NCBI GenBank assembly: GCA_965204045.1
Contig: CBDBDW010000002.1
Span: 2,754,610-2,818,609 of the forward strand
Direction of reading: 5' to 3'
Source: Gammaproteobacteria bacterium
GTDB taxonomy: Bacteria; Pseudomonadota; Gammaproteobacteria; Eutrophobiales; Eutrophobiaceae
Length of the DNA stretch: 64,000 nt
Shown here piece by piece: positions 1,141-55,369 of the stretch. Each line of letters opens with the position of its first letter. Positions within the stretch are counted from its first letter, which is position 1. Under the pieces are notes generated by a model. The model did not search any database. It saw nothing but the letters and a program-made list of their open reading frames with translations, and was not told where the DNA came from. The translations under genes and the position numbers were made by a program.

Positions 1141-1251
1141 TTACCGCGGTCCCCTGGTTAGTGGCATGGAAATAGATTTTCTGCTCAGTTTCATGATTCT
1201 ACGGTACAAGGATGTATCGGCAAAATCAATGCGGGAGTCCGAGCCTGTCCG

Positions 1252-1276
1252 GGGACGGACTTGAAGTCCGCCCCCA
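1252..1276. repeat. Short copy of a REP-like palindromic element (GGGGACGGA-loop-TCCGCCCCC)
   Basis: Near-perfect inverted repeat ggggacggacttgaagtccgccccc. It shares its core with the copies at 5097, 58809, 3615, 16199 and 55319. Confidence 0.6.
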
Positions 1277-1406: not shown

Positions 1407-3572
1407 ATGCTCAAGTCAGGAAATTTCGCAAAATTTCTCGTCACGTTTTCGTGCGCGGTTTTATTCATGCTGGATGCGGTTGCGGCATACTCACAGGAGA
1501 AAGACAAGGGTGTCCTGGAAGAAGTCATAGTAACTGCGCAGCGGCGCACCGAGAACCTGCAGGATATTCCCCTGGCGGTCACCTCCTTTTCTGCCCGGAA
1601 CCTCAGTGACAAAGGTGTCTATGACCTGTTCGGCCTCACGTCCCTGGCGCCGAACCTGGACATCGTACAGAATAACGGCAGGGTAAAGGTATTTATACGC
1701 GGTATCGGCCTCACGCTGGATAATTCGGGCTCTGAGGGCGCGGTTGCGGTGCACCAGGACGGTGTGGTCATAGCCTATCCCAACTCGCAGGGCACTTCGT
1801 TTTACGATATTGAACGGATAGAGGTCTTGCGCGGGCCACAGGGCACCCTGTTCGGCAGAAATGCAACCGGCGGCACGCTCAACATCATCACCCGGGGGCC
1901 GACGGATGAGGTGAAGGTCAATGCCCGCGCCAACTTCGGCAACTATGAGGCGCGGGAGTTTGAACTCGGTGTCGGCGGTCCCCTGGTAAAAGACAAGTTA
2001 TCGGCGCGTGCTGCTTTCTACAAGGTGGACAGGGACGGTTTCGGTGAAAACACTTTTAACGGCGAGGATATCGACGATCGTGATGAGGTCGCGGCGCGCG
2101 GCAAGCTGAAGTGGCAGGTGACGGACGACCTGACCGTGGTTGCGGCGATTGATTACTGGGATGCCGATGACTCGGGCGCGGTCGTGCACACCTTCGGCTC
2201 TGCATTCGGCGAGTTGCAGGGGGTTGTCGAGGGTGGCAACGGGAAACAAAGTTTCAGGGATATAGCAAGTGAAACCGAAGAAAGCCGGGATATGAGGACA
2301 TACGGCTACTCCCTGGATGTCACCTATGAAATCAATGAAAACTTTACCTTCAAGTCCCTGACGGGTTACCGCGATGAGCACAGCGTAAAGAAATCACAGT
2401 ATGACGGTACGGACAATCCCGGCTGGCCTTCCACCAACTGGAATTCCGGCGTCCATTTCAGCCAGGAGTTTCAGTTGAACTGGGACACGGACAGGATCAA
2501 CAGCGTGTTCGGCCTGTATTACTTCGATGATGACGTGTTTGTCACCAATACGGTCCCGTTCGAATTTGCCATTAACCTGCCCGGCGACATCTTTGATGAA
2601 CGCGGACATGCAAAAACGGAGGCCTACGCGGCATTCGGCAGCCTGACCTGGGCGGTGACGGACAGGCTGAACCTGACGGCGGGAGTCAGGTACAGCGACG
2701 AAAAAAGAACCACGGAAAGCTCGTTCCAGCTCAGGATTCAACTGTTTGGCCTGGATTTGTTTATCCCGCTGAACAACCAGCGCAAATATGACGCCTGGAC
2801 GCCGCGGTTCTCCATTGATTATGCCTTGACAGACGATGCCATGGTTTATTTCACCGCATCACGCGGCTTTAAAAGCGGACAGATACTGCCGGGTAACACG
2901 GCCCCGCCGCTCAACCCCGAATTTATCTGGAGCTACGAAGGCGGCATAAAGTCCGTCCTGTTTAACGACAGGCTGAAAGCCAACCTGTCGGCCTTCTACT
3001 ACGACTATTCGGATTTACAGGTAAGCCAGTTGCTGGGCCTTTCGTTTACGCTTACCAATGCCGCAGCCGCCGAAGCTATCGGCGTGGAGGCGGAACTCGC
3101 CTACCTGCTGACCGAGAATACCCAGCTGGAACTGGTCTACGGATACCTGGATAATGAATTTACCGAATTCTACACCCAGGATCCGATATTCCCCGAACTG
3201 GGCCTGCTGAACCTCAAGGGTAACCCGTTACCCAATTCACCCAAACACATGTTCACCCTGAGCGCAAGCCAGACCTTACCCACTACAATGGGGGATTTTG
3301 ACTTCAGGGTGGACTGGCGCTGGCGGGATACGGCTTACTTTGACCCCTACAAGCGGGAAGTGGCCTCCCAGGATTCATACTCCAATGTCAGCATGAGGGG
3401 CACTTTTCAACCGCGTAACCAGAACTGGTCGATATCCGCCTGGGTCAACAACCTGACCAACAAGAATGCGTATATCACCAACTATATCAGCCTGGCCAGT
3501 GGCGGCTTCCCCCGCAACGGCGATATCAACGACCCGAGAACATACGGTATAGAACTGCGTTACGAAATGTAA
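1407..3572 (+). CDS. TonB-dependent outer-membrane receptor
   Basis: N-terminal signal peptide MLKSGNFAKFLVTFSCAVLFMLDAVAAYS, followed by a plug-domain TonB box (VLEEVIVTAQRRTENLQDIPLAV). About 740 aa with beta-barrel character. Start chosen at the ATG at 1407 inside the longer ORF. Confidence 0.85.
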   Translation: MLKSGNFAKFLVTFSCAVLFMLDAVAAYSQEKDKGVLEEVIVTAQRRTENLQDIPLAVTSFSARNLSDKGVYDLFGLTSLAPNLDIVQNNGRVKVFIRGIGLTLDNSGSEGAVAVHQDGVVIAYPNSQGTSFYDIERIEVLRGPQGTLFGRNATGGTLNIITRGPTDEVKVNARANFGNYEAREFELGVGGPLVKDKLSARAAFYKVDRDGFGENTFNGEDIDDRDEVAARGKLKWQVTDDLTVVAAIDYWDADDSGAVVHTFGSAFGELQGVVEGGNGKQSFRDIASETEESRDMRTYGYSLDVTYEINENFTFKSLTGYRDEHSVKKSQYDGTDNPGWPSTNWNSGVHFSQEFQLNWDTDRINSVFGLYYFDDDVFVTNTVPFEFAINLPGDIFDERGHAKTEAYAAFGSLTWAVTDRLNLTAGVRYSDEKRTTESSFQLRIQLFGLDLFIPLNNQRKYDAWTPRFSIDYALTDDAMVYFTASRGFKSGQILPGNTAPPLNPEFIWSYEGGIKSVLFNDRLKANLSAFYYDYSDLQVSQLLGLSFTLTNAAAAEAIGVEAELAYLLTENTQLELVYGYLDNEFTEFYTQDPIFPELGLLNLKGNPLPNSPKHMFTLSASQTLPTTMGDFDFRVDWRWRDTAYFDPYKREVASQDSYSNVSMRGTFQPRNQNWSISAWVNNLTNKNAYITNYISLASGGFPRNGDINDPRTYGIELRYEM

Positions 3573-3614: not shown

Positions 3615-3665
3615 GGGGACAGACCCCTGCTTACCACATGCAGGGGCATGCTTAAATCTGTCCCC
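3615..3665. repeat. Long copy of the nested palindromic REP/MITE-like element
   Basis: ggggacagaCCCCTGCttaccacatGCAGGGGcatgcttaaatctgtcccc. An outer stem (GGGGACAGA/TCTGTCCCC) encloses an inner hairpin (CCCCTGC/GCAGGGG). The ATG inside it (3648) is the most plausible start of the downstream gene. Confidence 0.7.
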
Positions 3666-5111
3666 TTTGCCAGGTTTGGGATAAGGAAATCCCTCTTACA
3701 TTGGTTACTGTTTGTCGGCGTTCTGCAGCTCTTTACCGATTCCGGCCAGGTATGGGCCGGAGAAATCCTGGCATTGACCGGTGGCAGGATTATCGATGGC
3801 AATGGAGGGCCGCCCCTGGAAGAGGCCGCAGTCGTTATCCAGGGCTCGAAAATAACTGCAATCGGCCCCGCTTCCGTCGTTCCCGCGCACGCTCGAGTAA
3901 TAAATCTTGACGGTAAAACGCTTTTACCCGGTCTCATTGATGCGCATATCCACATCGGTGGCAGCGGCGGCGGGTCGGCGGACCCGCGTGAATTCACTCC
4001 CACTGCTGTTGAAAACAGCCTCCTGAGTTACCTGAAGTTCGGCGTGACCACTATTTACGATATGGCTGCACATCCCAGCCTGAATTCCATGAAAACAGCG
4101 CTGGAGACCGGTGAACTGATGGGTCCGAGGTTGTACGGCAACGGTTTTGGCATCACCGCACCCGGTTCGCATCCCATCCGCCTGATAACCGAACTCGGAC
4201 TGCTTGAATACCTGGGACCTTTCTATTTCCAGGTTGACAACGTGGCAGACGCCAGAGAGGCCATTCGCAGTATCAGTGCGCAACAGGTTGACGGCATCAA
4301 GCTGTTCCACTCGCGCGTCGAAGCCGGGACCACCCGGTTTGACGCCGACATGGAAAAGTTGAAGCCTGATATCCTTCATACCTTGATTGAGGAAGCCCAC
4401 ACCCGTGGTCTGAAGGTTTATGCGCACACGTCATTTCCCAGCGAGGTCAGGGAATTTGTTGAAGCCGGCGGTGACGTCGTCGTGCATAGCATTCACATGG
4501 CCGAGACCGGCGCCGATGAGGTGTTTGAACTGATGGTCGAACGCGATGTTGCCTATATCCCGACACTCGCAGTGTTTGAAGGCGGCTATACATCGAAACC
4601 GGACTCGTTTTTTTCCCCGCAACTGCATCACAAGGTATGGGATGTTCTGCTGGCGTCGATTACTGCCCCTGACAGCGTCGTTCTGGCTTCCCGGGAGGTT
4701 CCGGGTCTTCTCAATGACAGGGAGCGCAGCCTGGAAATATCAATGGCGAACCTGGGGCGTGCACTGCAGGCCGGCATCAGGATTGCAATGGGGAGTGATG
4801 CGGGCAATGCGGGGATGCTGCACGGCGCGACAGTACTGCGCGAACTGCAGTTGATGAACGAAGCAGGTATGACGCCGATGCAGGTACTCGTGGCTGCCAC
4901 CCGAAACGGGGCCGAAGTCATCGGCCGGGGAGAGGAACTGGGCACCCTTGAGGCCGGCAAGCTGGCCGATATTATCGTCGTCAACGGCGATCCGTTACAG
5001 GACCTTTCTGCCTTGGGTAATGTCGAATTGGTGGTGAAAAACGGCAAGATCATCAACCCTGGGGAACTGGAGTTCAAGGAAGTACCACAACCAACAGGGG
5101 ACGGATTTTAA
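3648..5111 (+). CDS. Secreted metal-dependent amidohydrolase (imidazolonepropionase/prolidase-like family)
   Basis: Signal peptide MLKSVPFARFGIRKSLLHWLLFVGVLQLF, then LLPGLIDAHIHIGGSGGG (the HxH metal-binding motif of the amidohydrolase superfamily). Start taken at 3648 rather than the ORF-track 3597. Confidence 0.75.
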   Translation: MLKSVPFARFGIRKSLLHWLLFVGVLQLFTDSGQVWAGEILALTGGRIIDGNGGPPLEEAAVVIQGSKITAIGPASVVPAHARVINLDGKTLLPGLIDAHIHIGGSGGGSADPREFTPTAVENSLLSYLKFGVTTIYDMAAHPSLNSMKTALETGELMGPRLYGNGFGITAPGSHPIRLITELGLLEYLGPFYFQVDNVADAREAIRSISAQQVDGIKLFHSRVEAGTTRFDADMEKLKPDILHTLIEEAHTRGLKVYAHTSFPSEVREFVEAGGDVVVHSIHMAETGADEVFELMVERDVAYIPTLAVFEGGYTSKPDSFFSPQLHHKVWDVLLASITAPDSVVLASREVPGLLNDRERSLEISMANLGRALQAGIRIAMGSDAGNAGMLHGATVLRELQLMNEAGMTPMQVLVAATRNGAEVIGRGEELGTLEAGKLADIIVVNGDPLQDLSALGNVELVVKNGKIINPGELEFKEVPQPTGDGF

Positions 5112-5121
5112 ATCCGTCCCC
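5097..5121. terminator. Short REP-family hairpin overlapping the stop codon; likely bidirectional terminator between convergent genes
   Basis: ggggacggattttaaatccgtcccc forms a perfect 12-bp stem. It sits between the convergent amidohydrolase (+) and SDR (-) genes and is followed by a very AT-rich spacer. Confidence 0.5.
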
Positions 5122-9362: not shown

Positions 9363-10496
9363 GTCGCTTACCTGTTCATGGCTGCGGACGATCCTGTAAG
9401 CCCCTGCTTCACACAGGCTGGCGGAAGTGCCGGCGCCGGTCAGGACAGCGATGGGTAGTACCCCTGCCGCGTGACTTGCCTGCATATCGATAACGCTGTC
9501 GCCAACATAGACCGCATCGCCCGGGGCGACGTCCATGCGTTCCAGGCACTTGTTCAGGCCCTCCGGGTCGGGTTTGCGTTTTTTCACGTCGTAGCCGGTA
9601 ATTACCGCATCGAACATCCCGGCAACCCCAAGGCCGTACAGCAGGTCCAGGGACCATTCCCCCGATCCGGTGACGATACCCAGCGCAAAGCCGGCTGTCT
9701 TAAGTCCGGACAGGGTTTCCACGACGCCCGTAAAAGCCCCGGCGCTGTCCTTGATGAGTTCGGGCCAGAGTTCCATGGCCCTGTTGTTCAGTTTTTTGAT
9801 CATGGCCGGCCGGTCTTCCGCTGTCTCCGGCACTACGTGGTCCCAGTAGGAAATACCGAGATTCAGTGTCTCATACATGCGTTCCCTGGATACTTCCAGT
9901 CCGAACTCCGCGCCGGTCCGTTTGGCAAGCTGGTAAAATGCGTCCACGGTATCGACCAGGGTGCCGTCCAGGTCGAACAGGACGGCGCTGGTTCGCACAG
10001 GCTTGATCAAACTCAGGGTAAGGCGGTCCCCGTCGTTGAGAGAGAAATGCCCGCGCAGTGACAGCGGGGCGATAACCTCTACCTGGTCATCCGGGTAACC
10101 GTCGACTTCGGGAAAGATAATGGCCCCGGTGACATGGTTGTTGACCTGGACCGGATAGCTTCGGGCATGACAGTTGCCGGCGTCAGGCGAGAGGATGCCG
10201 ATGCCGTCTCCATTTCTCAGGGATTGCCATCCGGCAACGGAATCCGCATCGTCCAGTTTCAGATTCAGCGTGCCGGGCCAGGTATCAATGCCGAGTTTAT
10301 CCAGGAATTGCTGCTTTGCGTGTTCCAGTTCGGTAAAACCCGCGGCCTGGCCTGTTCCGGTAACTACCCGGCCGGATAATTCCAATTCAATGATTCTCCC
10401 GTTGTAGTTCAGCGGCGCGATGAATGGCCGCGCGGATGCGCTGGTAAGTCCCGCAACGGCAGATATTGCCGGACATCGCCATATTGATATCCTCAT
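9348..10496 (-). CDS. Fusion protein: archaeal-type CTP-dependent riboflavin kinase domain (RibK/DUF120) plus HAD-family phosphatase domain
   Basis: N-terminal domain: [13 protein letters not shown]...[13 protein letters not shown]...[41 protein letters not shown], matching the GTLNLKL and IEIIAP..LRE.F.L.DGD blocks of MJ0056-type riboflavin kinase. C-terminal domain: HAD motifs [18 protein letters not shown] and [14 protein letters not shown]. The start is uncertain: the first ATG (10496) overlaps the upstream coxS-like gene by about 110 bp. Confidence 0.6.
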
Positions 10497-10851
10497 CGGA
10501 AGGCGAGGGGTTACCGGCGAGCAGGGCGACGGCCGACATGATTTGTCCCGACTGGCAATAACCGCACTGGGGCACCTGCAACTCAATCCAGGCCTGTTGA
10601 ACCGGATGGTAGCCGTCTCTGGCCAGGTGTTCGATGGTGGTGATTTTACTGTTGCCGATACTGCTTACCGGGAGCACACAGGAACGCATGGGTTTCCCGT
10701 CGACATGAACGGTGCAGGCCCCGCACTGGGCGATCCCGCAACCGAACTTGGTTCCTGTCAACCCGATCTCGTCCCGCAGCGCCCACAGAAGCGGCGTGTC
10801 CGCTTCGACGTCAACTTCATAAGGCTTGTCATTAACGTTGAGCTTAATCAT
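10387..10851 (-). CDS. (2Fe-2S)-binding small subunit of a molybdenum hydroxylase (CoxS/XdhC-small type), orphan
   Basis: [16 protein letters not shown] ... [12 protein letters not shown] ... CRCGTYQRI. These are the two Fe-S cluster cysteine motifs of CoxS-like proteins. No large or medium subunit is adjacent. Confidence 0.8.
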
Positions 10852-11052
10852 TTCTTTTCTGCACCGTGGTTACACGAGGAAGTGAACTTCGCACAATATA
10901 ATCCAGAAATTAAAAAATTTGTATTGTTTTTTACCTGTGTAAATCAGGAATAGCAGGTTTGTGGGAAACACTGGGAGTTGCAGGGTGGAGAAAACGTCGT
11001 TGCAATTCTTAAATTGTTGTCTGTTCTATTCTCTCCAATAGGCCCGCGCCCT

Positions 11053-11758
11053 TCACATGCTTTCCAGCTCTGATATGCGGAACCAATTTTCGTCTTCCTC
11101 TACTTTGACAGTCGGGGTACGCGGAATTGAACCATCGTCCAGCGCTATTGTATTCGGAAAACAAAACATCCAGTCGTCATAAGCTTTCCGGATTAACTCT
11201 TTATCAGTGTTAACGTCATAAAAATTTTTCAACCAATTCACAGCTTCCCCCTGATTCAATCAGTTCCAACTCAGGCCTCATTGATTTTCCCTTGAACAGC
11301 GCATTAGAAATATTACATACAATCACATCAAATTCATGCGCCATGTATCTGTCATTTGTAGTCTCGCTTTTACTGATATTGCTTCTTGATTTATGGCACT
11401 TGACCTTGAAATGAGGCGTCTGAACCTTAGTATATTTGCTTCCTGTCTTGAAACTTCCGCGAACTGCGCTTTTTGCTTCAACCTTCAGTCGTCTTCCAGT
11501 TCTTGAAAAGGTGACGCTGATGTCCTCATCATACTGATTTGATTGTGGATTTAAATTCAGTTTCTGAACATGCCATTCACGGGTGTGCAGCGTCTGTTTT
11601 AGTACTACAGCTGCAATGTATTCCGTAGCCTTGCCGCGGATCATTGGCAATACCTTTTGATCCTCAAGAATGTCAAGCAGGCTCTCTATGGGTATATTAT
11701 ATTTATCGCAATATTCTTTAATGCTGTGATATATCCTTGATTGTTCATCAGTATTCAT
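11053..11758 (-). pseudogene. Candidate restriction endonuclease partner of the Dam-like methyltransferase, apparently frameshifted into two ORFs (11216..11758 and 11053..11259)
   Basis: The two ORFs are in different frames and overlap by 44 bp around a G5 tract (cagggggaagc). The gene sits immediately downstream of the methyltransferase and overlaps its stop by 4 bp, in an AT-rich island. No recognisable nuclease motif was found, so the role is assigned from context. Confidence 0.35.
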
Positions 11759-12657
11759 AACGCCGCCAACTGTTGTGAGGGCTGTTCAGGTAGGCAGGGG
11801 ATCTCAAGATGATTTTCGTAGTTACGAATAAATACCTCTTTACCCTTGTATCGTTTGTTTTTATAGCCATCTTCCAGTTTAAGTCCATTCCTCTGGTCAT
11901 CTGTGCGATTTATAGTGTAATTCCATTCCTGAGTGTCTATTGAGCCAGTCCAATCATATAAATTCCAGATGTCAGGATGATTGTCGTAAGTGATCAAAAA
12001 TCTCAGTCTGTCAGAATGACGCCGTAAACAATCTGATAACCTTAAGTGATCTTCATAGTCAAAATTACACCTATAAAATTTCTTCTGGTCCGCTCCGTAA
12101 TATGGCGGGTCGATAAACAGGAAAAAACCATCGACCAGATTGTCTATAAGATTTTCAAAGTCCTGATATAACAGGTCAACTCCTTGCAGGCGGTCAGAAA
12201 CAGTCCGTAAGTGGGGGGGCCAGTTTTCAGGTTGCATGGAGTATTTAGTACCGTAGCCCCAATAACAATTTTCGTCTTTCATTATGCCACTGTATGAAGT
12301 GCGGTTCAGGTAGTACCATCTGAATGCCCGTTCCAAATCGTTACCCGGGTAAAAATCATTTTTGTAAAAATGATGTAATTCCTTTTTTGCAGGAATCCCA
12401 TTCAACAATTCGATTAATCCTTCAACGTTGTCTCTGATTTGGATATAGCAATTCATCAGCTCTTCATCCAGATCATTGAGAATTGCGTATGTTTGGCGCT
12501 TCTGGGCGAAAAAAATCGAAGCGCCACCGGCAAAGGGTTCACAGTAATGAGTATGTTCGGGGATATAGCGGAGAATTAGGTGACGAGCGTAAAATTTGCC
12601 TCCTGGATACCGAAAAGGCGAGTTCGTTTTATTCGATCTGGGCAATAAAATACTCAT
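11755..12657 (-). CDS. DNA adenine methyltransferase (Dam-like, N6-adenine methyltransferase of the D12 class)
   Basis: YPGGKFYARHLI...CEPFAGGASIFF (motif I) and LFIDPPY (DPPY motif IV). AT-rich relative to the flanks. Start taken at the internal ATG (MSILLPRSNK...). Confidence 0.85.
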   Translation of the reverse strand: MSILLPRSNKTNSPFRYPGGKFYARHLILRYIPEHTHYCEPFAGGASIFFAQKRQTYAILNDLDEELMNCYIQIRDNVEGLIELLNGIPAKKELHHFYKNDFYPGNDLERAFRWYYLNRTSYSGIMKDENCYWGYGTKYSMQPENWPPHLRTVSDRLQGVDLLYQDFENLIDNLVDGFFLFIDPPYYGADQKKFYRCNFDYEDHLRLSDCLRRHSDRLRFLITYDNHPDIWNLYDWTGSIDTQEWNYTINRTDDQRNGLKLEDGYKNKRYKGKEVFIRNYENHLEIPCLPEQPSQQLAAL

Positions 12658-16198: not shown

Positions 16199-16250
16199 GG
16201 GGACAGACCCCCGCTGACGACATGCGGGGGCATGCTTCAAATCTGTCCCC
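16199..16250. repeat. Long copy of the nested palindromic REP/MITE-like element
   Basis: ggggacagacccccgctgacgacatgcgggggcatgcttcaaatctgtcccc. About 80% identical to the copies at 3615 and 55319. Its internal ATG (16222) is the likely start of the downstream lipoprotein gene. Confidence 0.7.
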
Positions 16251-17744: not shown

Positions 17745-18157
17745 GGAATCGTCAGGACGTCTTTGTAGATTCAGGGGGCTGGATAGCGTTGGCATTGTCG
17801 CGGGACCCGTTTCACGAGAGAGCGGTCGAAGTCTGGAAACAGGTGCATGAAAGTCGTGCTTACCTCTATACATCCGTGCCGGTTATCCTGGAGACATTTA
17901 CTTTTCTTGATCGGCATGCGAGGCGAGATATCGCTATAGCCTGGAAAGATTCGTTAGAAAAGCTGTCCAACCTTGAAGTTATCTCCTGTGACGCAGAGGA
18001 GATGCGCTCTGCCTGGCAGTATTTCACCGGGCAAAAATTTCATAAGCTCTCTGCCGTAGATGCGACGAGTTTTGTGCTGATGGCTAAACGGCATATCAAA
18101 ATCGCTTTCGCTTTTGATCACCACTTCACATCTGCGGGTTTTCAACTCGTCGGATAA
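17741..18157 (+). CDS. vapC: VapC toxin (PIN-domain ribonuclease)
   Basis: PIN acidic residues are present in FVDSGGWIAL, ILETFTFL and AVDATSFVLM. 138 aa. Confidence 0.85.
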   Translation: MRNRQDVFVDSGGWIALALSRDPFHERAVEVWKQVHESRAYLYTSVPVILETFTFLDRHARRDIAIAWKDSLEKLSNLEVISCDAEEMRSAWQYFTGQKFHKLSAVDATSFVLMAKRHIKIAFAFDHHFTSAGFQLVG

Positions 18158-18247
18158 ACAGGTTACAGATCGCGCGTGCCGGCCGGGGAAAATCCTGCCC
18201 CCGGGTGTGGAACTGGTGTCTTAAAAGGACTGGCGCGGGCTACACTT

Positions 18248-18667
18248 TCAGGTCCAGCCCAACTCGTTTAATGCCCACGCCGAGTTCCATATTTTCACCA
18301 TGCCGGAAATAAGGTTATTTTCATCGAGGGTGAGCGCGTAAACGTAGTGCGAGTTGGTCTGCTTGTTCGTTGGCGGCACCGGCCCGCCTTCTCCGGTATG
18401 GGCGCCAGTGAACGTTCCAAAAAACAGGGCAGTGCGCGTCGCTTCATCATAGGATGATGCGTGCAGCTCGTAACCGCAGCCCGGCATCAGGTTTTTCCCG
18501 AGTCCTGCCATCCATTCGGTGTACCCTTCCACCGTATCTACGCCAGCCAGGGCGTCACTCTGCGCAACAAAACCTGCGCCGGGCGCGACGTATTGTTTAC
18601 AGCCGCTCCAGCCTTCAAGTCCTTCGCATGCGTGAAAAAAACGGTTTGCGTTGTCAAATGCTGACAT
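18248..18667 (-). CDS. SnoaL-like / NTF2-fold protein (ester cyclase or limonene-epoxide-hydrolase-like fold)
   Basis: 139 aa. The pattern and size fit SnoaL-like polyketide cyclase family proteins. Function unknown. Confidence 0.4.
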   Translation of the reverse strand: MSAFDNANRFFHACEGLEGWSGCKQYVAPGAGFVAQSDALAGVDTVEGYTEWMAGLGKNLMPGCGYELHASSYDEATRTALFFGTFTGAHTGEGGPVPPTNKQTNSHYVYALTLDENNLISGMVKIWNSAWALNELGWT

Positions 18668-18739
18668 GATTTTCTCCTGAAGTTGATTTTTGCTCGAATT
18701 ATCAGGTTTTAATTTATCACAAGCGGCTGCGTATGATCA

Positions 18740-19126
18740 CTATCCATTCAACGGCGAATAACGTTCGCCATTCATGATAGCGATTTTCCGTACATTACCC
18801 TGCATTTCAAACGTGCCGCAGAAACCTTTTTTAAGCACTAATGCCTGCCCCGGATAAAACTCTTCGGATGGTCCGTTTTCATCGGAAATAACTATCTTTC
18901 CGCTCAGCAAGTACATAAATTCATCCTGGGGGTAGTCTTTCAGCTGAAGTTTTACAGGCGCAGCCTGGTAGGCCGCAACGAGGAGTTCGCCGTGCTCGAA
19001 ATGATATGTCTGGTGCTGTGATTTTCCGGATAAAACTATTTCATCAGGGTATGGCGCATAGTCGTCAAGATCGATACCTGCCAACTTGTCAACATCCAAT
19101 CGTACAAGTTTATTATTGTTGCTCAT
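18740..19126 (-). CDS. Cupin domain protein (Cupin_3/DUF861-like)
   Basis: KDYPQDEFMYLLSGKIVISDENGPSEEFYPGQALVLKKGFCGTFEMQGNVRKIAIMNG. It is paralogous to 29994..30461. Confidence 0.6.
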   Translation of the reverse strand: MSNNNKLVRLDVDKLAGIDLDDYAPYPDEIVLSGKSQHQTYHFEHGELLVAAYQAAPVKLQLKDYPQDEFMYLLSGKIVISDENGPSEEFYPGQALVLKKGFCGTFEMQGNVRKIAIMNGERYSPLNG

Positions 19127-19760
19127 TTAATATTTTCTCCGGGCTGGAAGTACAACTACGGTTTAACGAACCTGGCAATCTTTCCACCATGCTCTCAATG
19201 ATGCGGACACATCGCTTTTTTGTATAAACTTCGGGGCTGAGTAAGGACTGAATACATACCCCATCCACCACCGCTAAAATCAGGTCCAGTATATCCTCCG
19301 TTTTCCTGGCACGTGGGATTTCTTCTTTATTAATAGAGTTCGTAATATATTTTTTCAGCAAATCACGATATTCATTTTTATTTGCATTGTATTCCTCGGC
19401 CAACAAAGGGTCATCACTGTTCCGGATCCCGAAACACATGGACACAAACGCAACGCTCTCCAGTTTTTCGGGGTCGGGCAAAAGTTCTACCATCGCGTTT
19501 CTTATGCACGATAAGTTACTTTCGGCGGATTTATTGGCATTGAGAATTCGTTCAAAAGTTTTTCTGTATGCGATTGTAAATGCAAATCTCAAGACGCTGT
19601 CCTTATCCCTGAAATAATGCGACAACACACCCGTAGTAAATCCTGCCTCCAGGGTAATATCACGCAGTGTAAGCTTATCGACACCGACGGATTGAACGGC
19701 AGCCCAGGTTGCATGCGCTATCTCAACCCTTCTTTCATCATGATTAACCAGTTTTGGCAT
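19113..19760 (-). CDS. TetR-family transcriptional regulator
   Basis: N-terminal TetR helix-turn-helix: ATWAAVQSVGVDKLTLRDITLEAGFTTGVLSHYFRDKDSVL. Confidence 0.85.
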   Translation of the reverse strand: MPKLVNHDERRVEIAHATWAAVQSVGVDKLTLRDITLEAGFTTGVLSHYFRDKDSVLRFAFTIAYRKTFERILNANKSAESNLSCIRNAMVELLPDPEKLESVAFVSMCFGIRNSDDPLLAEEYNANKNEYRDLLKKYITNSINKEEIPRARKTEDILDLILAVVDGVCIQSLLSPEVYTKKRCVRIIESMVERLPGSLNRSCTSSPEKILNEQQ

Positions 19761-19798
19761 AAATTGATCGCTCCATAAATCCTGGAAAAGAAAGAACG

Positions 19799-21106
19799 TT
19801 ATTTCGGGGCCGCAACATTCAAATAATCCAGCCCATTGAACAACACCCTCAGCCCCCGGTAGAGTAATGACGGGTTTCCGGAGTAAAAGGGAAAATCCCG
19901 TGTTGGCATATTATCAAACAGTGTACCCGCATCATCGGCTTTCAGTATTCGTCTGGCCATTTTTGAACCAAGATAGAGCGCCATCGAAAAGCTTGGTGTG
20001 GCACAGAAATGTACGCCGCCCTGCGTGCCGATATGGGGTAAGTGATCGGATGGCAATGCCAGGTTACCGTACCAGCAATATTCCGCTTCGATTTTCTCCA
20101 ATTCCGGAAACAGCTTTCTGTATGCGTTCAGTATTCTGTTTGATTGTGTATGGTTATCATCGGTACGTAAATAATGTGAAGCCAGTATAAGCCGGGTTTC
20201 CTTATCACAGGGCCTGAAATTAAAAAACATCTGTTTTGTATCGACGACTCCGCGCAAGGTGGGTAGTAGTTCCTTCAGTAAATCCTGTGGCATCGGTTCA
20301 GTCGCAACAACATGTGCCAGAAACGGAAAAATCTTCTTTTGCAAAAAGCCTGTTTCCGCGCCGGAATAGCCCTGTGTCGCCAGTACGACATGTTCTGCAG
20401 TGATGTCGCCCCTGTTCGTCGATATGGTAAACGTTCCATTTGATTGGCGTTGCACCGATTCAAGTCGGGTAGAGGAACATATTACAGCGCCTGAATCCGC
20501 AAGGCGTTGAACCATGCCGGCGGTCAATTGTCCCGGGTTCAGATCATAAGCTTCCGGCTGTACTTTCGCGCCATAGTAGATTTTATTTGCCCGGCCGCCG
20601 ATTTCCTTGCCAAGGTCCTGTCTGGGGACCATGTATGCGTCGACCGATCCAAACTGCTGCTTCAGCCGCTCCAGGGTATCAGCCATTGTTTCGTAGGCTG
20701 ATTTCGTGGTTGCCAGTACCAGCTTTCCACGTTGTCTCAATCCACAGCTGATGTTGTGACGCTTGACCAGTTCAAGAACATAATCGTGGGCAGCACGTCC
20801 TTCCCTGATCAGGTCACACTTTTTGACGCCATGAACAAGCCCGTCGAGATCCCCGGTTGTTGTACCGTCAATACGGTCCATCACCAACCCGAGATTCCTC
20901 GAGCATGCCCCGTGCCCCGGCCAGTCTTTCTCAATCAGCGTTACCTCAACACCGGAGCGTCGCAGTTCCAGTGCTGCGCTCAAGCCTGCAAAGCCACCGC
21001 CTGCTATTGCGACGTCGGTTCTTTGCGGCAGAGAAAAACCCGGTATTGACACCGGCAAGGTGTTTTCCCACCACAGCGAACGCTCATTGATTTCTTTCAT
21101 CGCCAT
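19799..21106 (-). CDS. FAD-dependent oxidoreductase (DAO/PuuB-like amine or amino-acid oxidase)
   Basis: Dinucleotide-binding motif VAIAGGGFAGLSAALELRRSGVEVTLIEK. About 435 aa, with DAO-family architecture. Confidence 0.8.
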   Translation of the reverse strand: MAMKEINERSLWWENTLPVSIPGFSLPQRTDVAIAGGGFAGLSAALELRRSGVEVTLIEKDWPGHGACSRNLGLVMDRIDGTTTGDLDGLVHGVKKCDLIREGRAAHDYVLELVKRHNISCGLRQRGKLVLATTKSAYETMADTLERLKQQFGSVDAYMVPRQDLGKEIGGRANKIYYGAKVQPEAYDLNPGQLTAGMVQRLADSGAVICSSTRLESVQRQSNGTFTISTNRGDITAEHVVLATQGYSGAETGFLQKKIFPFLAHVVATEPMPQDLLKELLPTLRGVVDTKQMFFNFRPCDKETRLILASHYLRTDDNHTQSNRILNAYRKLFPELEKIEAEYCWYGNLALPSDHLPHIGTQGGVHFCATPSFSMALYLGSKMARRILKADDAGTLFDNMPTRDFPFYSGNPSLLYRGLRVLFNGLDYLNVAAPK

Positions 21107-37823: not shown

Positions 37824-39038
37824 TCAATGCCAGAGCGTGCGCAATAACTTAGTGACCTCGGCCAGGCTTTCCAAGTTGTGTACGGGGAGGAAGTAATCCA
37901 GGAAGGGCAGGGCTGTTTGCATCCCTTTACACAGGGGTTGGTAGCTAGTGTTACCCAGCAACGGGTTCAACCAGATGATCTTGTTGACGCGCCGCCGCAG
38001 TTGTTCCATCTCGTTACGCATCAGGTCGGCGTCACCCTGGTCCCAGCCGTCACTCAGGATCACGGCGATGGTGTGGGAACTCAGCATCTGGTGGGCTTGT
38101 TGATCATTCAACTCGCGCAGGCAACCGCCGATATTCGTGCCCCCGGCCCAGTCATGCACCTGGTCCGACATCTGTTTAATCACCTCATCGATATCCCTGC
38201 GGTTCAGGTAAGGCGTAATGCTGGTCATGCGGGTCGAGAACACCGCGACTTCGATATTTGAGATATTCGCGCCCATGGCGCAGATGAGTTGAATCAGGAA
38301 CCGGCTGTAGCGCTCCATCGAACCGCTCACGTCGCAGAACAGGATGAGCTTGTTCTTCTTCAGCCGGTGGGTTTTATAAGCCAGTTTCAGGCAGTACTCC
38401 CCGTAAGGCATGCTGCGCCGGAATATCTTCCTGATATCAAGCTGCTGTCCCGATTTTGCCGGGCTGAAGCGCCGGCTCTTGCGATTCGCCAGGATGGCAA
38501 TCAATTCGGCAATGATCTTGCGGGCCTCATCCAGTTCCTTGTCAGTCATCCCGTCTATGTCTTTTTTCACCAGTAATTCATGGCTTGAATAACCGGTTTG
38601 TTCCGGATCGCCCTCATGTTCCTCCGCAGCACCCGGACCTTCCCCATCTGCGGGCTGGAACTGCTTTTGTAACTGCCGGGCTTCACCCGCGCCGTCGCCG
38701 TTTTCCTCTTCGCCGGCGGGGCGCTCGTCTTCAAATGGAATATCCTGGTTTTGCCAGTACTCACGGAACAGGAGGGCGAACAATTCCATGTCTTCCCTGT
38801 TGATAATCAGGGTCGCCAGGGCAGCCGCATAAAAATCTTCGTAATTGGCTATATCGATGTACAGGAGGCTGCGACTTAAATCGATCAGGTTGGCGGGATT
38901 GACGTCAATGCCTGCATCATGCAGTTTTCTACCGAAGCGGATGATGTGGGTGATGAACGGAAGCTCTTCCCGGCCGTTGTCCGTGCCGTCATTCCGGCCC
39001 AGGCCGGAACCCGGTAATGCAGGAGCATTAATCGCCAT
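37824..39038 (-). CDS. VWA-domain protein, CoxE-like (Mo-hydroxylase maturation)
   Basis: von Willebrand A motif with MIDAS residues (LILFCDVSGSMERYS). About 400 aa. It lies immediately downstream of a MoxR ATPase, as in coxD-coxE pairs. Confidence 0.8.
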   Translation of the reverse strand: MAINAPALPGSGLGRNDGTDNGREELPFITHIIRFGRKLHDAGIDVNPANLIDLSRSLLYIDIANYEDFYAAALATLIINREDMELFALLFREYWQNQDIPFEDERPAGEEENGDGAGEARQLQKQFQPADGEGPGAAEEHEGDPEQTGYSSHELLVKKDIDGMTDKELDEARKIIAELIAILANRKSRRFSPAKSGQQLDIRKIFRRSMPYGEYCLKLAYKTHRLKKNKLILFCDVSGSMERYSRFLIQLICAMGANISNIEVAVFSTRMTSITPYLNRRDIDEVIKQMSDQVHDWAGGTNIGGCLRELNDQQAHQMLSSHTIAVILSDGWDQGDADLMRNEMEQLRRRVNKIIWLNPLLGNTSYQPLCKGMQTALPFLDYFLPVHNLESLAEVTKLLRTLWH

Positions 39039-41173: not shown

Positions 41174-42493
41174 ATGCGTGACTACATTGAAAAACTATCA
41201 GGACGCGGCGAGTTGCACGTGGTTGAGCGGGAAGTGGACCCCCGGTTCGAACTGGCCGCTGTCACTAGCCGTTCGCAAAAGGAAAGCGATTACCCTGTTC
41301 TGTTCAGGAACGTAAAGGGCACAAACCTGCCGGTGATCTCCAATATATACGGAAGCCACGCAAGACTGTGTGAAATTATCGGTACCACCAAGGGCAATTT
41401 CTGCCGGCACTGGCAGACGCTGGTGGATGATAACCCCGGTTCGGAGCACTCATACACCTGTGAGAGCGCAATGGAAGAAGAGCGCGTGGAAGGAAATATC
41501 AGTGATTTGCCCCACATTACTTATTTTGAGCGGGATGCCGGGCCTTATATCACCGCAGGCGTATTCCTGGCAAAGGAGCCGGACACGGGTGTGCCCAACC
41601 TGTCTTTCTGCCGCTCCATGATGGTCAGCGACGATGAACTGCGGGTGCGGCTGGCGCCTCCCCACGACATCACCCAATACCAGAAGAAGGCCGAAGCAAG
41701 AAGCCAGCCGCTGGAGGTGGCGATATTGATCGGACCCCCGCCGGAAGTGTTCATGGCAGCCTGCGCTTCGGTGCCGATTGAGCAGGATGAACTGGCTATT
41801 GCCGCCCGGCTGATGGGAACGCCTGTGCCGATGCGCCCGTGTCGCCGTATCGACATGCAGGTCCCGGCTGAGACCGAGATCGTGATTGAAGGCCGTATCC
41901 TGCCCCATGAGCGCAGACCGGAAGGACCGTTCGGTGAGTTCCAGGGATACTATGTCAAGCAGGCGGATAACCACGTGTTCGAAGTGCTGAACGTGAGTTG
42001 GCGCGAGGGAGCCTGTTTTCATGGTTTATTGTGCGGTTACATGGAGGACCTGCGCGCCCTGGAGGTTTCCTTTGCGACCCGCGTCTACAGGCATATCTCC
42101 GCGGGCGTGCCGGGCATCCTGGACGTGAGTTGTTATCCGACCCCGATGCATACCATCGTACAGATCCGGCCGGAATACGATGGGCATGCAAAACATGTCA
42201 TGCTCAAGGTTTTCAGCTCCCACCTGCAGTACAACAAAGTCTGCATCGTCGTGGATGGGGACGTGGACATCCATGATTTTGAGGACGTGTGGTGGGCGGT
42301 CATGACCCGGGGGCGTATAGACAAAGACATCATGACCCTGCCGGGAGTGCCGGGCTTTTTCCGCGACCCCGCCGGCGTTTATACGGGGCGGCTTGGGATC
42401 GATGCGACCAAACCCTTCGACATGCGCGAGAACTTCGAAAGGAAACGCGTGCCGGGCTTGCCGGAGATCAACCTGAAGGACTATTTCACCTGA
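41174..42493 (+). CDS. UbiD-family (prFMN-dependent) reversible decarboxylase
   Basis: The typical UbiD N-terminus (MRDYIEKLSGRGELHVVEREVDPRFELAAVTSR...PVLFRNVKG...PVISNIYGS) and full length (about 440 aa). Confidence 0.85.
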   Translation: MRDYIEKLSGRGELHVVEREVDPRFELAAVTSRSQKESDYPVLFRNVKGTNLPVISNIYGSHARLCEIIGTTKGNFCRHWQTLVDDNPGSEHSYTCESAMEEERVEGNISDLPHITYFERDAGPYITAGVFLAKEPDTGVPNLSFCRSMMVSDDELRVRLAPPHDITQYQKKAEARSQPLEVAILIGPPPEVFMAACASVPIEQDELAIAARLMGTPVPMRPCRRIDMQVPAETEIVIEGRILPHERRPEGPFGEFQGYYVKQADNHVFEVLNVSWREGACFHGLLCGYMEDLRALEVSFATRVYRHISAGVPGILDVSCYPTPMHTIVQIRPEYDGHAKHVMLKVFSSHLQYNKVCIVVDGDVDIHDFEDVWWAVMTRGRIDKDIMTLPGVPGFFRDPAGVYTGRLGIDATKPFDMRENFERKRVPGLPEINLKDYFT

Positions 42494-43525
42494 TCACGGG
42501 CGGCGCAGTATTTCGATGACTGCCTGCGTTATGGGATTGGCGTTCGACACAGTCCCGCGGCTGACACAGGAGTCAAAGCGCCGGTCAAGATCGCCGGCAT
42601 CCAGTTCCCCTGCTGCGCCTATCGCGACGATGCGGGATGAAGGCGTCATTTCATGCCAGGGTGCGCCTTTTGCCAGGGTCACGCGTTTGCCCGTCATTTG
42701 CAGGATTACCTGTTTGTCCGGTACTTCACGGAGCTGCAGGATGCCCTTGCAGCGGAATACGGACAAGGGCAATGATTGAAACGTGCCGTAAGCGGATTCA
42801 AAATCCAACGGTGCATCACTTTGCCATGAATAACCGGCATAGGCATGGGTATGATCTGCGTGCCCGTGGCTTTCATGTCCGTGAGACCCTGCCGTTGTGC
42901 CGGCAAATGCGAAAGTCCGGTCTTCATGAAGGCTCAGGCCAAGCAGTAATTCCAAAGGAACATCAGCGCGAACTGCTTCGATAATACGTGATCTTGGCGC
43001 TATCTCCTTTATATGTCTGGAAACCTGTTCACTCGTGCCGGTATCGGCCAGGTCGATCTTGTTGATGATGGCGATATCGGCGACTTCGATCTGGTCTTCA
43101 GCCAGCTTCCCATTCAACTCGTCCAGTTCCAGCACCTCACTGGCGTCGACCACGGTGATAATGCCATCCAGTTGCGTTGCCGCGGCCAGGTCGGTCGACA
43201 TCACGATGGCCATGGCTGCGGTCTTCGGGTCGGACACGCCGCTCATTTCCACGACGATCATTTCAGGGTCGGGGTCCATTTGCAGAAGTTGTTGTATGGC
43301 TTCTACGAGATCATCGCGCATATTGCAACATACGCACCCATTGGTCAGGCTGATGGTTTCGCCTTCAACCCGGGTAATGAGTTGCGCATCGATGTTGATT
43401 TCTCCGAAATCATTCACCAGCACCCCGATACGCCGGCCATGTTGGCCGTTAAGTATGCGGTTAAGCAGTGTCGTTTTCCCGGAGCCGAGAAAACCGGCCA
43501 CGAGGCTGACGGGTACTTTATTCAT
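42494..43525 (-). CDS. CobW/COG0523-family GTPase metallochaperone
   Basis: MNKVPVSLVAGFLGSGKTTLLNRIL (P-loop), the CxCC metal-binding motif (NGCVCCNMRDDL), and a His-rich stretch SHGHESHGHADHTH. Start taken at the ATG at 43525. Confidence 0.85.
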   Translation of the reverse strand: MNKVPVSLVAGFLGSGKTTLLNRILNGQHGRRIGVLVNDFGEINIDAQLITRVEGETISLTNGCVCCNMRDDLVEAIQQLLQMDPDPEMIVVEMSGVSDPKTAAMAIVMSTDLAAATQLDGIITVVDASEVLELDELNGKLAEDQIEVADIAIINKIDLADTGTSEQVSRHIKEIAPRSRIIEAVRADVPLELLLGLSLHEDRTFAFAGTTAGSHGHESHGHADHTHAYAGYSWQSDAPLDFESAYGTFQSLPLSVFRCKGILQLREVPDKQVILQMTGKRVTLAKGAPWHEMTPSSRIVAIGAAGELDAGDLDRRFDSCVSRGTVSNANPITQAVIEILRRP

Positions 43526-55035: not shown

Positions 55036-55308
55036 ATGGCTGAAAACGTATTCATTGCATTGCAGAACAATCCTGATGCGCAGCCCATCATACAGGCGAT
55101 CGTCGAAGACAACCCGGCAGCGGTGGTGAATGATTCTCCGGGGATGGTTAAAATAGATTGTCCGAAACGGTTGGTAATCAGGCGAGAGACCGTGGAAGAA
55201 AAAATCGGCGGAGATTTCAACCTGCAGGACATCCACCTCACGCTGATTTCCCTGGCCGGCAACATCGAAGAAGACGATGATGAATTTGTTTTACAGTGGA
55301 ATATCTAA
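55036..55308 (+). CDS. dmpM: Phenol hydroxylase regulatory/coupling protein (P2, MmoB/DmpM family)
   Basis: 90 aa: MAENVFIALQNNPDAQPIIQAIVEDNPAAVVNDSPGMVKIDCPKRLVIRRETVEE.... Confidence 0.8.
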   Translation: MAENVFIALQNNPDAQPIIQAIVEDNPAAVVNDSPGMVKIDCPKRLVIRRETVEEKIGGDFNLQDIHLTLISLAGNIEEDDDEFVLQWNI

Positions 55309-55318
55309 TCCGAGACAA

Positions 55319-55369
55319 GGGGACGGACCCCCGCTTACAACATGCGGGGGCATGCTTGAATCCGTCCCC
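55319..55369. repeat. Long copy of the nested palindromic REP/MITE-like element, inside the dmp operon (between dmpM and dmpN)
   Basis: ggggacggacccccgcttacaacatgcgggggcatgcttgaatccgtcccc. Confidence 0.7.

What the first reader, a model, noticed from the sequence alone, without database searches (positions are those of the whole stretch)
3615..3665. Family of nested palindromic REP/MITE-like elements, six copies in 64 kb, some contributing start codons to genes
Long copies (about 51 bp) at 3615, 16199 and 55319 share the structure GGGGAC(A/G)GA - CCCC(T/C)GC-loop-GC(A/G)GGGG - CATGCTT(A/C)AA(A)TC(T/C)GTCCCC. That is an outer stem enclosing an inner hairpin. Short copies carrying only the outer stem (about 25 bp) lie at 1252, 5097 and 58809, in terminator-like positions after genes. 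In two long copies the internal ATG (aCATGCrGGGGCATG) is in frame with the downstream gene and is its most plausible initiation codon, judging from signal-peptide position: the amidohydrolase (3648) and the AttH lipoprotein (16222). Two copies sit inside the dmp operon, after dmpM and after dmpQ.
Basis: seen in the sequence. Interest (0 to 1): 0.55.

Follow-up and report, generated by a model that had tools for sequence, protein, structure and literature searches.

The report
Transposase-end hairpin repeats between genes
Six copies of a small GC-rich hairpin repeat are real, and their arms match the terminal inverted repeats of a known class of tyrosine-transposase genes, so this is an ordinary REP/MITE-like repeat family, though some copies run into genes.

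Summary
There are six copies, three short (25 nt) and three long (51-52 nt), against about zero expected by chance. Both stems show compensatory changes.

The arm GGGGACRGATTT equals the outer 12 nt of the 21-nt terminal inverted repeats (AAAGGGGACAGATTTATTTTC) that flank an IS200-like Y1 transposase gene in Aquisalimonas and Pseudomonas. Thioalkalivibrio and Ectothiorhodospira carry the upstream repeat. This is the published TIRYT/TIRtron class, whose repeats have the consensus GGGGWSAS. The hairpins are therefore head-to-head dimers of transposase-end repeats, that is, REP/MITE-like non-autonomous elements.

It likewise flanks a Y1 gene elsewhere. No transposase gene was found in the window or in relatives' loci, so mobilisation in this organism is inferred.

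- The 1251 copy lies in a divergent promoter or 5'UTR region, not after a gene.
- No copy has a sense-strand T-tract.
- The lipoprotein starts at the conserved ATG 16162 and reads through the element in frame, so the ATG 16222 claim is not supported.
- The amidohydrolase start (GTG 3597 or ATG 3648) is unresolved.
- Two stop codons lie inside elements.

This is a known kind of element and of modest interest.

The parts
1251..1275 (.). Short hairpin copy GGGGACGGACTTGAAGTCCGCCCCC (one A/C mismatch). It lies in the divergent region between a minus-strand hydantoinase-like gene and the TonB receptor gene, whose ATG is at 1344.
   Evidence: Searches give sequence and fold. Searches give context. 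The copy is absent at the orthologous place in relative L117.
3615..3665 (+). Long nested copy. It starts 42 nt after the TonB receptor stop (3570-3572). It overlaps the 5' end of the amidohydrolase ORF and contains the in-frame ATG 3648. GTG 3597 lies upstream in the same frame.
   Evidence: Relative L117 has 'GGGGACAACTCTTC' plus a short copy here. L195 has the same long copy.
5097..5121 (.). Short, perfect hairpin copy. The amidohydrolase stop codon TAA (5109-5111) lies in its loop. It sits between convergent genes.
   Evidence: In L117 the stop lies 6 nt before the same hairpin. The tail ...PQPTGDGF* is shared by many relatives. It scores as terminator-like only on the minus strand.
16199..16250 (+). 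Long nested copy lying in frame inside the 5' end of the AttH-like lipoprotein gene (start ATG 16162, lipobox LPGC downstream).
55319..55369 (+). Long nested copy between dmpM (stop at 55308) and dmpN (ATG at 55393, SD AAGAGGAA). It is purely intergenic.
58809..58833 (.). Short hairpin copy (one A/C mismatch) after dmpQ. It is nested inside the element 58779-58867.
58779..58867 (.). Second MITE-like element with 17-nt inverted ends, GGGGTCAGCGTAAAAAT and ATTTTTACTCTGACCCC. It encloses the 58809 hairpin, and its left end contains the dmpQ stop codon (58789-58791).
   Evidence: One search shows a 17-nt inverted repeat at 94% complementarity. One search shows the family of 70-90-nt elements in relatives' loci, with the same nested composite in L084. 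Searches show the same ends flanking a Y1_Tnp gene in L197.

Best explanation
The six hairpins are non-autonomous palindromic repeats built from the outer ends of the terminal inverted repeats (TIRs) of a TIRYT-type element. A TIRYT element is a roughly 0.8-kb unit in which an IS200-like Y1 (HUH) tyrosine transposase gene is flanked by GGGGWSAS-type TIRs.

The short form is a head-to-head dimer of the first 12 nt of that TIR (GGGGACRGATTT / AAATCYGTCCCC). The long form is a lineage-specific derivative. It has an extra 7-bp hairpin (CCCCYGC-N9-GCRGGGG) plus CATGC placed directly after the left arm.

Inferred mechanism: single-stranded copies fold into hairpins that the Y1 enzyme recognises and moves or copies in trans, as shown biochemically for the related TnpA-REP/REP pair. 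Copies survive where they do little harm. Such places are intergenic spacers, gene ends (two stop codons now lie inside elements) and the cleaved n-region of a signal peptide. Once transcribed they are strong RNA stem-loops, which may secondarily affect mRNA stability or translation.
For: Shown by tool results:

1. The repeat family is real and structured.

2. The arm equals the end of a Y1-gene TIR.
- In Aquisalimonas (L022), perfect 21-nt TIRs AAAGGGGACAGATTTATTTTC flank a 719-nt segment. That segment holds a 234-aa protein that hits Pfam Y1_Tnp at 51.7 bits and NCBIfam REP_Tyr_transpos at 73.3 bits.
- In Pseudomonas (L190), 21-nt TIRs are 95% complementary.
- Thioalkalivibrio and Ectothiorhodospira carry the same upstream TIR.

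3. There is a continuum of palindromes. Forms such as GGGGACAGATTTATTTTC-(variable apical hairpin)-GAAAATAAATCTGTCCCC grade down to the 25-nt form across lineages. This includes gammaproteobacterial MAGs that also carry the second family seen in the window.

4. The second family in the window, GGGGTCAGAGTAAAAAT, likewise forms the 23-nt TIRs of another Y1_Tnp gene (L197).

5. The class is published. Di Nocera et al. 2013 (PMC3733652) describe TIRYT/TIRtrons with TIR consensus GGGGWSAS, and TIRs forming repeat families as singles, dimers and clusters. Quentin et al. 2018 (PMC6006769) give the same consensus.

6. The copies are dispersed and unlinked. No gene recurs next to the hairpin in 116 loci, as expected for elements served in trans by a transposase gene located elsewhere in the genome.

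7. Turnover between close relatives is visible.
- Presence versus absence at 1251.
- Copies in L112 where the window has none.
- None, short, long, and short plus long states at the AttH site.

8. At shared sites the hairpin is better conserved than its flanks.
Against: - No Y1/TIRYT gene was found in the 64-kb window or in any fetched locus of its close relatives. The genome-wide scan needed to find one could not be repeated.
- Four of the six copies have GGGGACGG, one base off the GGGGWSAS consensus.
- No target-site duplication or clean empty site was seen.
- TIRYT activity on such hairpins has never been shown biochemically.
- The arms might instead be halves of a target hairpin that the Y1 gene unit inserted into.
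- Single hits in distant phyla may be chance terminator hairpins. About 270 random matches are expected for my pattern in 596 Gb (my own estimate).
Confidence: 0.7

Rival explanations
1. The elements are host-selected RNA stem-loops that act on the transcript, for example by protecting the upstream cistron from 3' exonucleases, serving as an intercistronic processing site, or tuning translation near stop codons. On this view any link to transposase ends is historical only. This is compatible with the best explanation as a secondary role.
For: - All long copies with readable context lie 2-46 nt after the stop of an upstream gene in the sense orientation. That is 7 of 8 clearly, across the window and loci L080, L087, L089 and L111.
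- The predicted stems are very stable.
- At orthologous sites the hairpins are conserved better than their flanks.
- In phage-like contigs the hairpin often sits just upstream of a ribosome-binding site.
Against: - Short copies also occur in divergent promoter regions: the window copy at 1251, and 11 of the classified loci.
- One long copy lies inside a coding region.
- In the long form the unpaired loop and bulge positions vary more than the stems, which suggests no specific RNA recognition motif.
- The two imperfect short copies give A-C mismatches on the sense strand.
- There is no Rfam match.
- Sense orientation is confounded with replication direction, because the + strand has rising cumulative GC skew.
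Confidence: 0.2
2. The elements are ordinary Rho-independent terminators that happen to share sequence.
For: Each has a GC-rich stem, and several lie just after stop codons. Copy 5097 scores as terminator-like on the minus strand, facing a convergent gene.
Against: - No copy has a T-tract on the sense strand.
- Two copies are inside the dmp operon, one is in a 5' region and one is inside a coding sequence.
- Near-identical sequence at unrelated loci and in many genomes is not a property of terminators.
Confidence: 0.03
3. The elements are binding sites for a sequence-specific DNA-binding protein (an operator) or a DNA-uptake signal arranged as inverted pairs.
For: The palindrome is perfect, with 11-12-bp half-sites. 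The extended arm in other lineages has a GC core plus an AT-rich tail, which recalls uptake signals.
Against: - The flanking genes are functionally unrelated.
- Positions are mostly downstream of genes.
- Exact arms are almost always paired: 10 of the 11 exact GGGGACRGA matches lie in the six elements, and the one stray match, at 59919, is at the chance level. Uptake signals occur mostly as single copies, including inside genes.
- The same arms flank Y1 transposase genes.
Confidence: 0.03

Closest known systems
TIRtron / TIRYT terminal-inverted-repeat families (Di Nocera, De Gregorio & Rocco 2013, BMC Genomics 14:522, PMC3733652; Quentin et al. 2018 subclass 2.1, PMC6006769)
   Same: - The outer motif GGGGACAG / GGGGTCAG fits the published TIR consensus GGGGWSAS.
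- The same sequence forms 21-23-nt TIRs around RAYT-like Y1 genes.
- As described for TIR repeats, the repeats occur as dimers and clusters.
   Different: - Here the repeat unit is cut down to a 25-nt head-to-head dimer of only 12 nt per arm.
- Most copies carry G at consensus position 7 (GGGGACGG).
- A nested long variant exists.
- The partner transposase gene was not seen in this genome.
- Quentin et al. reported finding no REP-like sequences near subclass 2.1 genes. I could not show that the L022-type protein belongs to that subclass, because no C-terminal HTH was detected.
REP / BIME elements with RAYT (TnpA-REP), and REPINs (Bertels & Rainey 2011, PMC3116915; Messing et al. 2012, PMC3479197; Bertels et al. 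2017, PMC5581495)
   Same: - Both are short GC-rich palindromes at high density in intergenic DNA.
- Both are associated with a Y1 HUH enzyme.
- Copies are conserved at orthologous sites yet show turnover.
- Mosaic or nested arrangements occur.
   Different: - There is no GTAG or CGTC tag at the foot of the hairpin.
- Each transposase flank carries one arm (a TIR) rather than a complete hairpin.
- The short form is a single near-perfect palindrome, not a REP doublet.
MITEs (miniature inverted-repeat transposable elements)
   Same: They have terminal inverted repeats identical to those of a gene-carrying element, almost no internal sequence, and no coding capacity. The 89-nt element at 58779-58867 fits this description best.
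   Different: No target-site duplication was seen. The presumed transposase is a Y1 single-strand enzyme, not a DDE enzyme.
Rickettsia palindromic elements and intragenic REPs (own knowledge for RPEs; 'Intragenic REPs' are listed in Additional file 3 of PMC3733652)
   Same: In both cases a palindromic repeat is inserted in frame and translated as part of a protein. Here that is the n-region of the AttH-like lipoprotein signal peptide and the C-terminal tail of the amidohydrolase.
   Different: The sequence family is unrelated. Here the translated segments are a cleaved leader and a C-terminal tail, not the protein core.

Membership tests
TIRYT/TIRtron TIR repeats | Outer end of the repeat fits GGGGWSAS. 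| tested here: met
   GGGGACAG (copies 3615 and 16199) and GGGGTCAG (58779 and 58867) fit exactly. GGGGACGG (1251, 5097, 55319, 58809) differs at one position. The consensus is from PMC3733652.
TIRYT/TIRtron TIR repeats | The same sequence forms inverted repeats flanking a RAYT-like Y1 transposase gene. | tested here: met
   This was met in other organisms only:
- L022, 21 nt at 100%.
- L190, 21 nt at 95%.
- L197, 23 nt at 91% for the GGGGTCAG type.
Pfam Y1_Tnp scores 51.7 bits for the L022 and L197 proteins.
TIRYT/TIRtron TIR repeats | A TIRYT gene with matching TIRs is present in the same genome as the repeats. | not testable with these tools
   tblastn found no Y1 gene in the window or in relatives' loci.
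TIRYT/TIRtron TIR repeats | Repeats occur as singles, dimers or clusters. | tested here: met
   Head-to-head dimers are seen in all six copies. Short plus long occur in tandem in L194. Clusters occur in L065, L072 and L068.
Classical REP (GTAG- or CGTC-tagged) with RAYT | A conserved GTAG or CGTC tetranucleotide at one end of the palindrome. | tested here: not met
   The ends are GGGG...CCCC, and the flanks are not conserved.
Classical REP (GTAG- or CGTC-tagged) with RAYT | A 20-40-nt imperfect palindrome, multi-copy and extragenic. | tested here: met
   The copies are 25 and 51-52 nt, with six in 64 kb. They are mostly intergenic, but 16199 lies inside a coding sequence and 5097 overlaps a stop codon.
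REPIN | Two inverted REP hairpins separated by a spacer, forming a longer hairpin. | tested here: not met
   The short form is a single palindrome. The long form has one asymmetric inner hairpin, not two REPs.
MITE | Terminal inverted repeats shared with an autonomous element, plus target-site duplication. | tested here: inconclusive
   The TIRs are shared. No target-site duplication or clean empty site appeared in the comparisons with relatives.
Intrinsic terminator | A GC-rich stem followed by a T-tract on the transcribed strand. | tested here: not met
   No copy has a sense-strand T-tract. Only 5097 scores, and only on the minus strand.
Any Rfam RNA family | A match at the family's gathering score. 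| tested here: not met
   There were 0 matches at gathering threshold in the window. E-value scans of two long copies gave only matches far below threshold.

The most novel reading that the evidence does not exclude
The 25-nt hairpin GGGGACRGATTT-N-AAATCYGTCCCC may be the genome-wide partner population of a very large, highly conserved RAYT-like clade. More than 7,900 proteins hit at E<=1e-10, and identity is 65-75% between Aquisalimonas and Pseudomonas. This clade has been reported to lack REP-like partners. On this reading the same hairpin is kept almost base-for-base in Gammaproteobacteria, Syntrophales, Nitrospirota and phage-like contigs. The lineage-specific long form, always sense-oriented a few bases after a stop codon, would then have acquired an RNA-level role of its own.
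Probability: 0.2. Interest if true: 0.55.

Novelty: new member of a known kind. Interest (0 to 1): 0.3.

Why it matters
- It puts a name and a likely mobilising enzyme on a repeat that would otherwise be annotated as nothing.
- It explains why some gene ends here are odd. Two stop codons and part of a signal peptide are encoded by repeats, and gene callers disagree on the amidohydrolase start.
- The relatives offer a natural series at one site (none, short, long, short plus long) that could be used to study how TIRYT-type repeats arise and decay.
- It does not reveal a new kind of system.

Tried and rejected
- **Linked gene search.** I clustered all ORFs of 116 hairpin-bearing loci to find a recurrent gene. 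Only generic families came up, such as EF-G, ABC transporters and TonB receptors. ORFs lying between closely spaced copies included no transposase.
- **Literature search by sequence.** Searching for the sequence itself returned only unrelated primers.
- **Rfam.** Scans at gathering and at E-value thresholds found nothing.
- **tblastn with remembered sequences.** E. coli RAYT and IS200 sequences recalled from memory gave one weak hit (L022), which became the lead. There was nothing in the window or its relatives.
- **Identifying the source contig.** Exact-protein look-up found nothing on record.
- **Pfam on the C-terminal third of the L022 protein.** I wanted to place it in Quentin's subclass 2.1, but there was no hit.
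- **tRNA-derived or CRISPR repeat origin.** I considered a T-arm/minihelix origin and a CRISPR-like solitary repeat. I rejected both on reading the sequence: the T-arm register fails and the spacing is irregular.
- **In-frame TGA at 42493.** I first misread this as separating two co-directional genes. The genes are convergent.
- **Cross-phylum breadth.** Much of the apparent spread among single hits may be chance. Only genomes with several hits were treated as carriers.

Full report
**1. Observation**

Reading the six sites confirms the family.
- Short copies of 25 nt lie at 1251-1275, 5097-5121 and 58809-58833.
- Long copies of 51-52 nt lie at 3615-3665, 16199-16250 and 55319-55369.

The numbers rule out chance.
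- The arm GGGGACRGA occurs 11 times against 1.4 expected.
- The pattern GGGGACRGA-N(4-34)-AATCYGYCCCC gives 6 matches at 5 of the six sites, with copy 5097 matching on both strands, against 0.00 expected. Copy 1251 does not fit it.
- The inner-hairpin signature occurs 3 times against 0.01 expected.

A 9-bp outer stem encloses a 7-bp inner hairpin that abuts the left arm, followed by an unpaired CATGCTTNAA. Long copies fold at -30 to -34 kcal/mol and short copies at -15 to -20 kcal/mol.

I aligned eleven long copies: three from the window, seven from other loci found by the collection scans, and one from an AttH-homologue locus (L194). On that alignment 98.3% of cells pair. One pair in each stem shows G-C/A-T or C-G/T-A/G-C exchanges. 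A relaxed scan found no further copies in the window.

**2. Context**

Gene identities come from NCBIfam and from the annotated locus of a relative.

- **1251.** This copy lies between a minus-strand hydantoinase-like gene that runs off the window and the TonB receptor gene (ATG 1344). That is a divergent promoter or 5'UTR region, not a position after a gene.
- **3615.** This copy follows the TonB receptor stop by 42 nt and overlaps the open 5' end of an amidohydrolase ORF.
- **5097.** The amidohydrolase stop codon lies in the loop of this copy, which faces a convergent gene.
- **16199.** This copy lies between an ABC permease stop and the lipobox of an AttH-like lipoprotein.
- **55319.** This copy lies between dmpM and dmpN.
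- **58809.** This copy follows dmpQ.

None has a T-tract on the sense strand. Only 5097 scores as terminator-like, and only on the minus strand. Rfam finds nothing.

**3. Distribution**

Two loci are syntenic relatives of the window, with 85-93% identical DNA:
- L015, from the MAG contig CBDEUD010000003.1.
- L112, from CAYOEQ01.

Genomes with several hits include many gammaproteobacterial MAGs, Syntrophales, Nitrospirota, Marinobacter, Ectothiorhodospiraceae, Entotheonella and others. Single hits in distant phyla may be chance hairpins. My own estimate is that a few hundred random matches are expected for this pattern in 596 Gb.

Other lineages carry longer palindromes, GGGGACAGATTTATTTTC-(variable apical hairpin)-GAAAATAAATCTGTCCCC. 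In many loci the palindrome extends into locus-specific flanks.

Across the loci the short hairpin is mostly intergenic and occurs in all gene arrangements. The true long form was found only in the window's gammaproteobacterial lineage. The scans gave ten copies: three in the window, five in genome loci and two in metagenome contigs. L194 adds an eleventh. Where context is readable, 7 of 8 long copies lie 2-46 nt after the stop of an upstream gene in sense orientation.

The hairpin also occurs in IMG/VR contigs. One 54-kb contig holds at least 12 copies, often just upstream of a ribosome-binding site.

**4. What it is**

No gene recurs beside the hairpin. A tblastn with remembered RAYT and IS200 sequences gave one weak hit, in L022 (Aquisalimonas).

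That ORF is 234 aa. It hits Pfam Y1_Tnp at 51.7 bits and NCBIfam REP_Tyr_transpos at 73.3 bits, just under the cutoff of 80. Perfect 21-nt inverted repeats AAAGGGGACAGATTTATTTTC flank it, with 719 nt between them.

The protein belongs to a very large, conserved family. At least 7,993 proteins hit at E<=1e-10, with 65-75% identity to Pseudomonas and Thioalkalivibrio members. I fetched three members.
- Pseudomonas (L190) has 21-nt TIRs at 95% complementarity.
- Thioalkalivibrio (L189) and Ectothiorhodospira (L191) have the same GGGGACAGATTTATTTTC upstream of the start codon.

The arm of the window hairpin is therefore the outer 12 nt of this TIR.

The literature already names this class.
- Di Nocera et al. 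2013 (PMC3733652) describe TIRYT genes in 'TIRtrons'. Their flanking TIRs share GGGGWSAS, and in some genomes those TIRs are moderately abundant repeat families organised as singles, dimers or clusters.
- Quentin et al. 2018 (PMC6006769) give the same consensus, GGGG[AT][CG]A[CG].
- Bertels et al. 2017 (PMC5581495) describe widely distributed RAYT groups without classical REPINs.

**5. A second family**

The 58809 copy is enclosed by 17-nt inverted ends, GGGGTCAGCGTAAAAAT / ATTTTTACTCTGACCCC, spanning 58779-58867. The dmpQ stop codon lies in the left end.

Elements of 70-90 nt with these ends are common in relatives' loci. L084 has the same nested composite, with a similar internal spacer. In an IMG/VR contig (L197), 23-nt TIRs ATTGGGGTCAGAGTAAAATAAAT flank another 232-aa Y1_Tnp gene. 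Pfam scores it at 51.7 bits, and it is 38% identical to the L022 protein.

Both families in the window therefore map to TIRs of Y1 genes.

**6. Evolution at orthologous sites**

- **Amidohydrolase 3' end.** Relative L117 has the same hairpin, but its stop codon lies 6 nt earlier. The window has CAA there and stops in the loop. The hairpin-encoded tail ...PQPTGDGF* is shared by many relatives at 85-95% identity.
- **Amidohydrolase 5' end.** L117 has a partial arm plus a short copy where the window has the long copy.
- **Site 1251.** L117 has no copy.
- **Copies in L112 but not the window.** L112 has hairpins at two intergenic places where the window has none. One is a 66-nt spacer between convergent genes that abut directly in the window. 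The other is replaced in the window by a different hairpin.
- **AttH site.** Homologues show every state: no element (L192), short (L193, and L015 with a remnant), long (window, P0241 and others), and short plus long in tandem with a third repeat (L194).

No clean empty site with a target duplication was seen.

**7. Start codons**

*AttH-like lipoprotein.* The start 3 nt after the permease stop (MTRQF...) is conserved with and without the element. The short element has no ATG yet is kept in frame. So ATG 16162 is the start, and the 16199 copy is translated as part of the signal-peptide n-region.

*Amidohydrolase.* Both GTG 3597 and ATG 3648 are open and conserved (L195), and neither has a good Shine-Dalgarno sequence. 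ATG 3648 gives a signal peptide of family-typical length. However, L117 has no ATG in its element and must start upstream. This remains undecided.

**8. Mechanism and rivals**

*Shown:*
- The arms are identical to TIRs of Y1 genes.
- The copies are dispersed and unlinked to any gene.
- Both stems show covariation.
- Copies turn over between relatives, yet are conserved where shared.

*Inferred:*
- A TIRYT mobilises the elements in trans through single-stranded hairpins, by analogy with TnpA-REP.
- The elements have secondary effects as RNA stem-loops.

The main rival is an RNA-level function selected by the host, and it is not exclusive of the best explanation. The sense orientation of long copies favours it. 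Against it stand the copies in promoter and coding positions, the greater variability of the unpaired positions, and the confounding with replication direction. Terminator, operator, uptake-signal and chance explanations are rejected or unlikely, for the reasons given under the rival explanations.

**9. Verdict**

This is a real repeat family of a known kind. The start-codon idea fails for one gene and is open for the other. Interest is modest.

Noticed in passing
window 58779-58867: A second MITE-like element has 17-nt inverted ends GGGGTCAGCGTAAAAAT / ATTTTTACTCTGACCCC and encloses the 58809 hairpin. The dmpQ stop codon lies in its left end. The family is common in relatives, and its ends flank a Y1_Tnp gene in L197.
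   Followed up: yes
window 60316-60455: Three tandem units of 47-48 nt each contain the palindrome ATTCCCGCGCAGGCGGGAAT (3 matches against 0.01 expected). They lie upstream of the gene starting at 60546. From memory, this resembles ATTCCC-N8-GGGAAT type repeats. A related hairpin, TTCCCGTGCAAACGGGAATCCAGT, flanks the amidohydrolase gene in relative L196.
   Followed up: partly
window 42491-42496 versus L112 4735-4800: Two convergent genes abut with no spacer in the window. Relative L112 has a 66-nt spacer there that contains a GGGGACGGATTTAAATCCGTCCCC hairpin.
   Followed up: partly
window about 38990-39030 versus L112 7505-7529: At the same intergenic site the window has a different hairpin (TTCCGGCC-CA-GGCCGGAA), while L112 has GGGGACAGAATTCAATTCTGTCCCC. 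This suggests replacement of one intergenic hairpin by another.
   Followed up: no
L194 about 1640-1730, and proteins P0243, P0245, P0251, P0274 and P0282: A third repeat inserted in frame in the AttH signal-peptide region of relatives encodes ...KFIAPIPVRNPPGGCRRANRLSCRF.... It is absent from the window.
   Followed up: no
L135, L138 and L163 (IMGVR_UViG_3300033489_000011, 54 kb): A contig classed as viral carries at least 12 copies of the 25-nt hairpin, several directly upstream of a ribosome-binding site. I did not check whether it is a phage or a misclassified chromosomal piece.
   Followed up: partly
L189 1496-2000: In Thioalkalivibrio the TIR plus the 5' part of the TIRYT gene is tandemly duplicated, giving a truncated 104-aa copy followed by the full gene.
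   Followed up: no
L196 about 330-520: In another relative, the spacer between the TonB receptor and amidohydrolase genes is filled by unrelated repeats. These are TTCCCGTGCAAACGGGAATCCAGT twice and ACTTTCGTGGGAGTGGG three times. This intergenic site attracts different repeat families in different genomes.
   Followed up: no
window 10001-12000 and 18001-20000: Two 2-kb stretches have lower G+C (0.47-0.48) than the rest of the window (0.51-0.61).
   Followed up: no
window 59919-59927: A lone GGGGACAGA lies in a G-rich stretch just downstream of the catechol 2,3-dioxygenase gene (which ends at 59846) and has no partner arm. This is consistent with the roughly 1.4 chance matches expected.
   Followed up: yes
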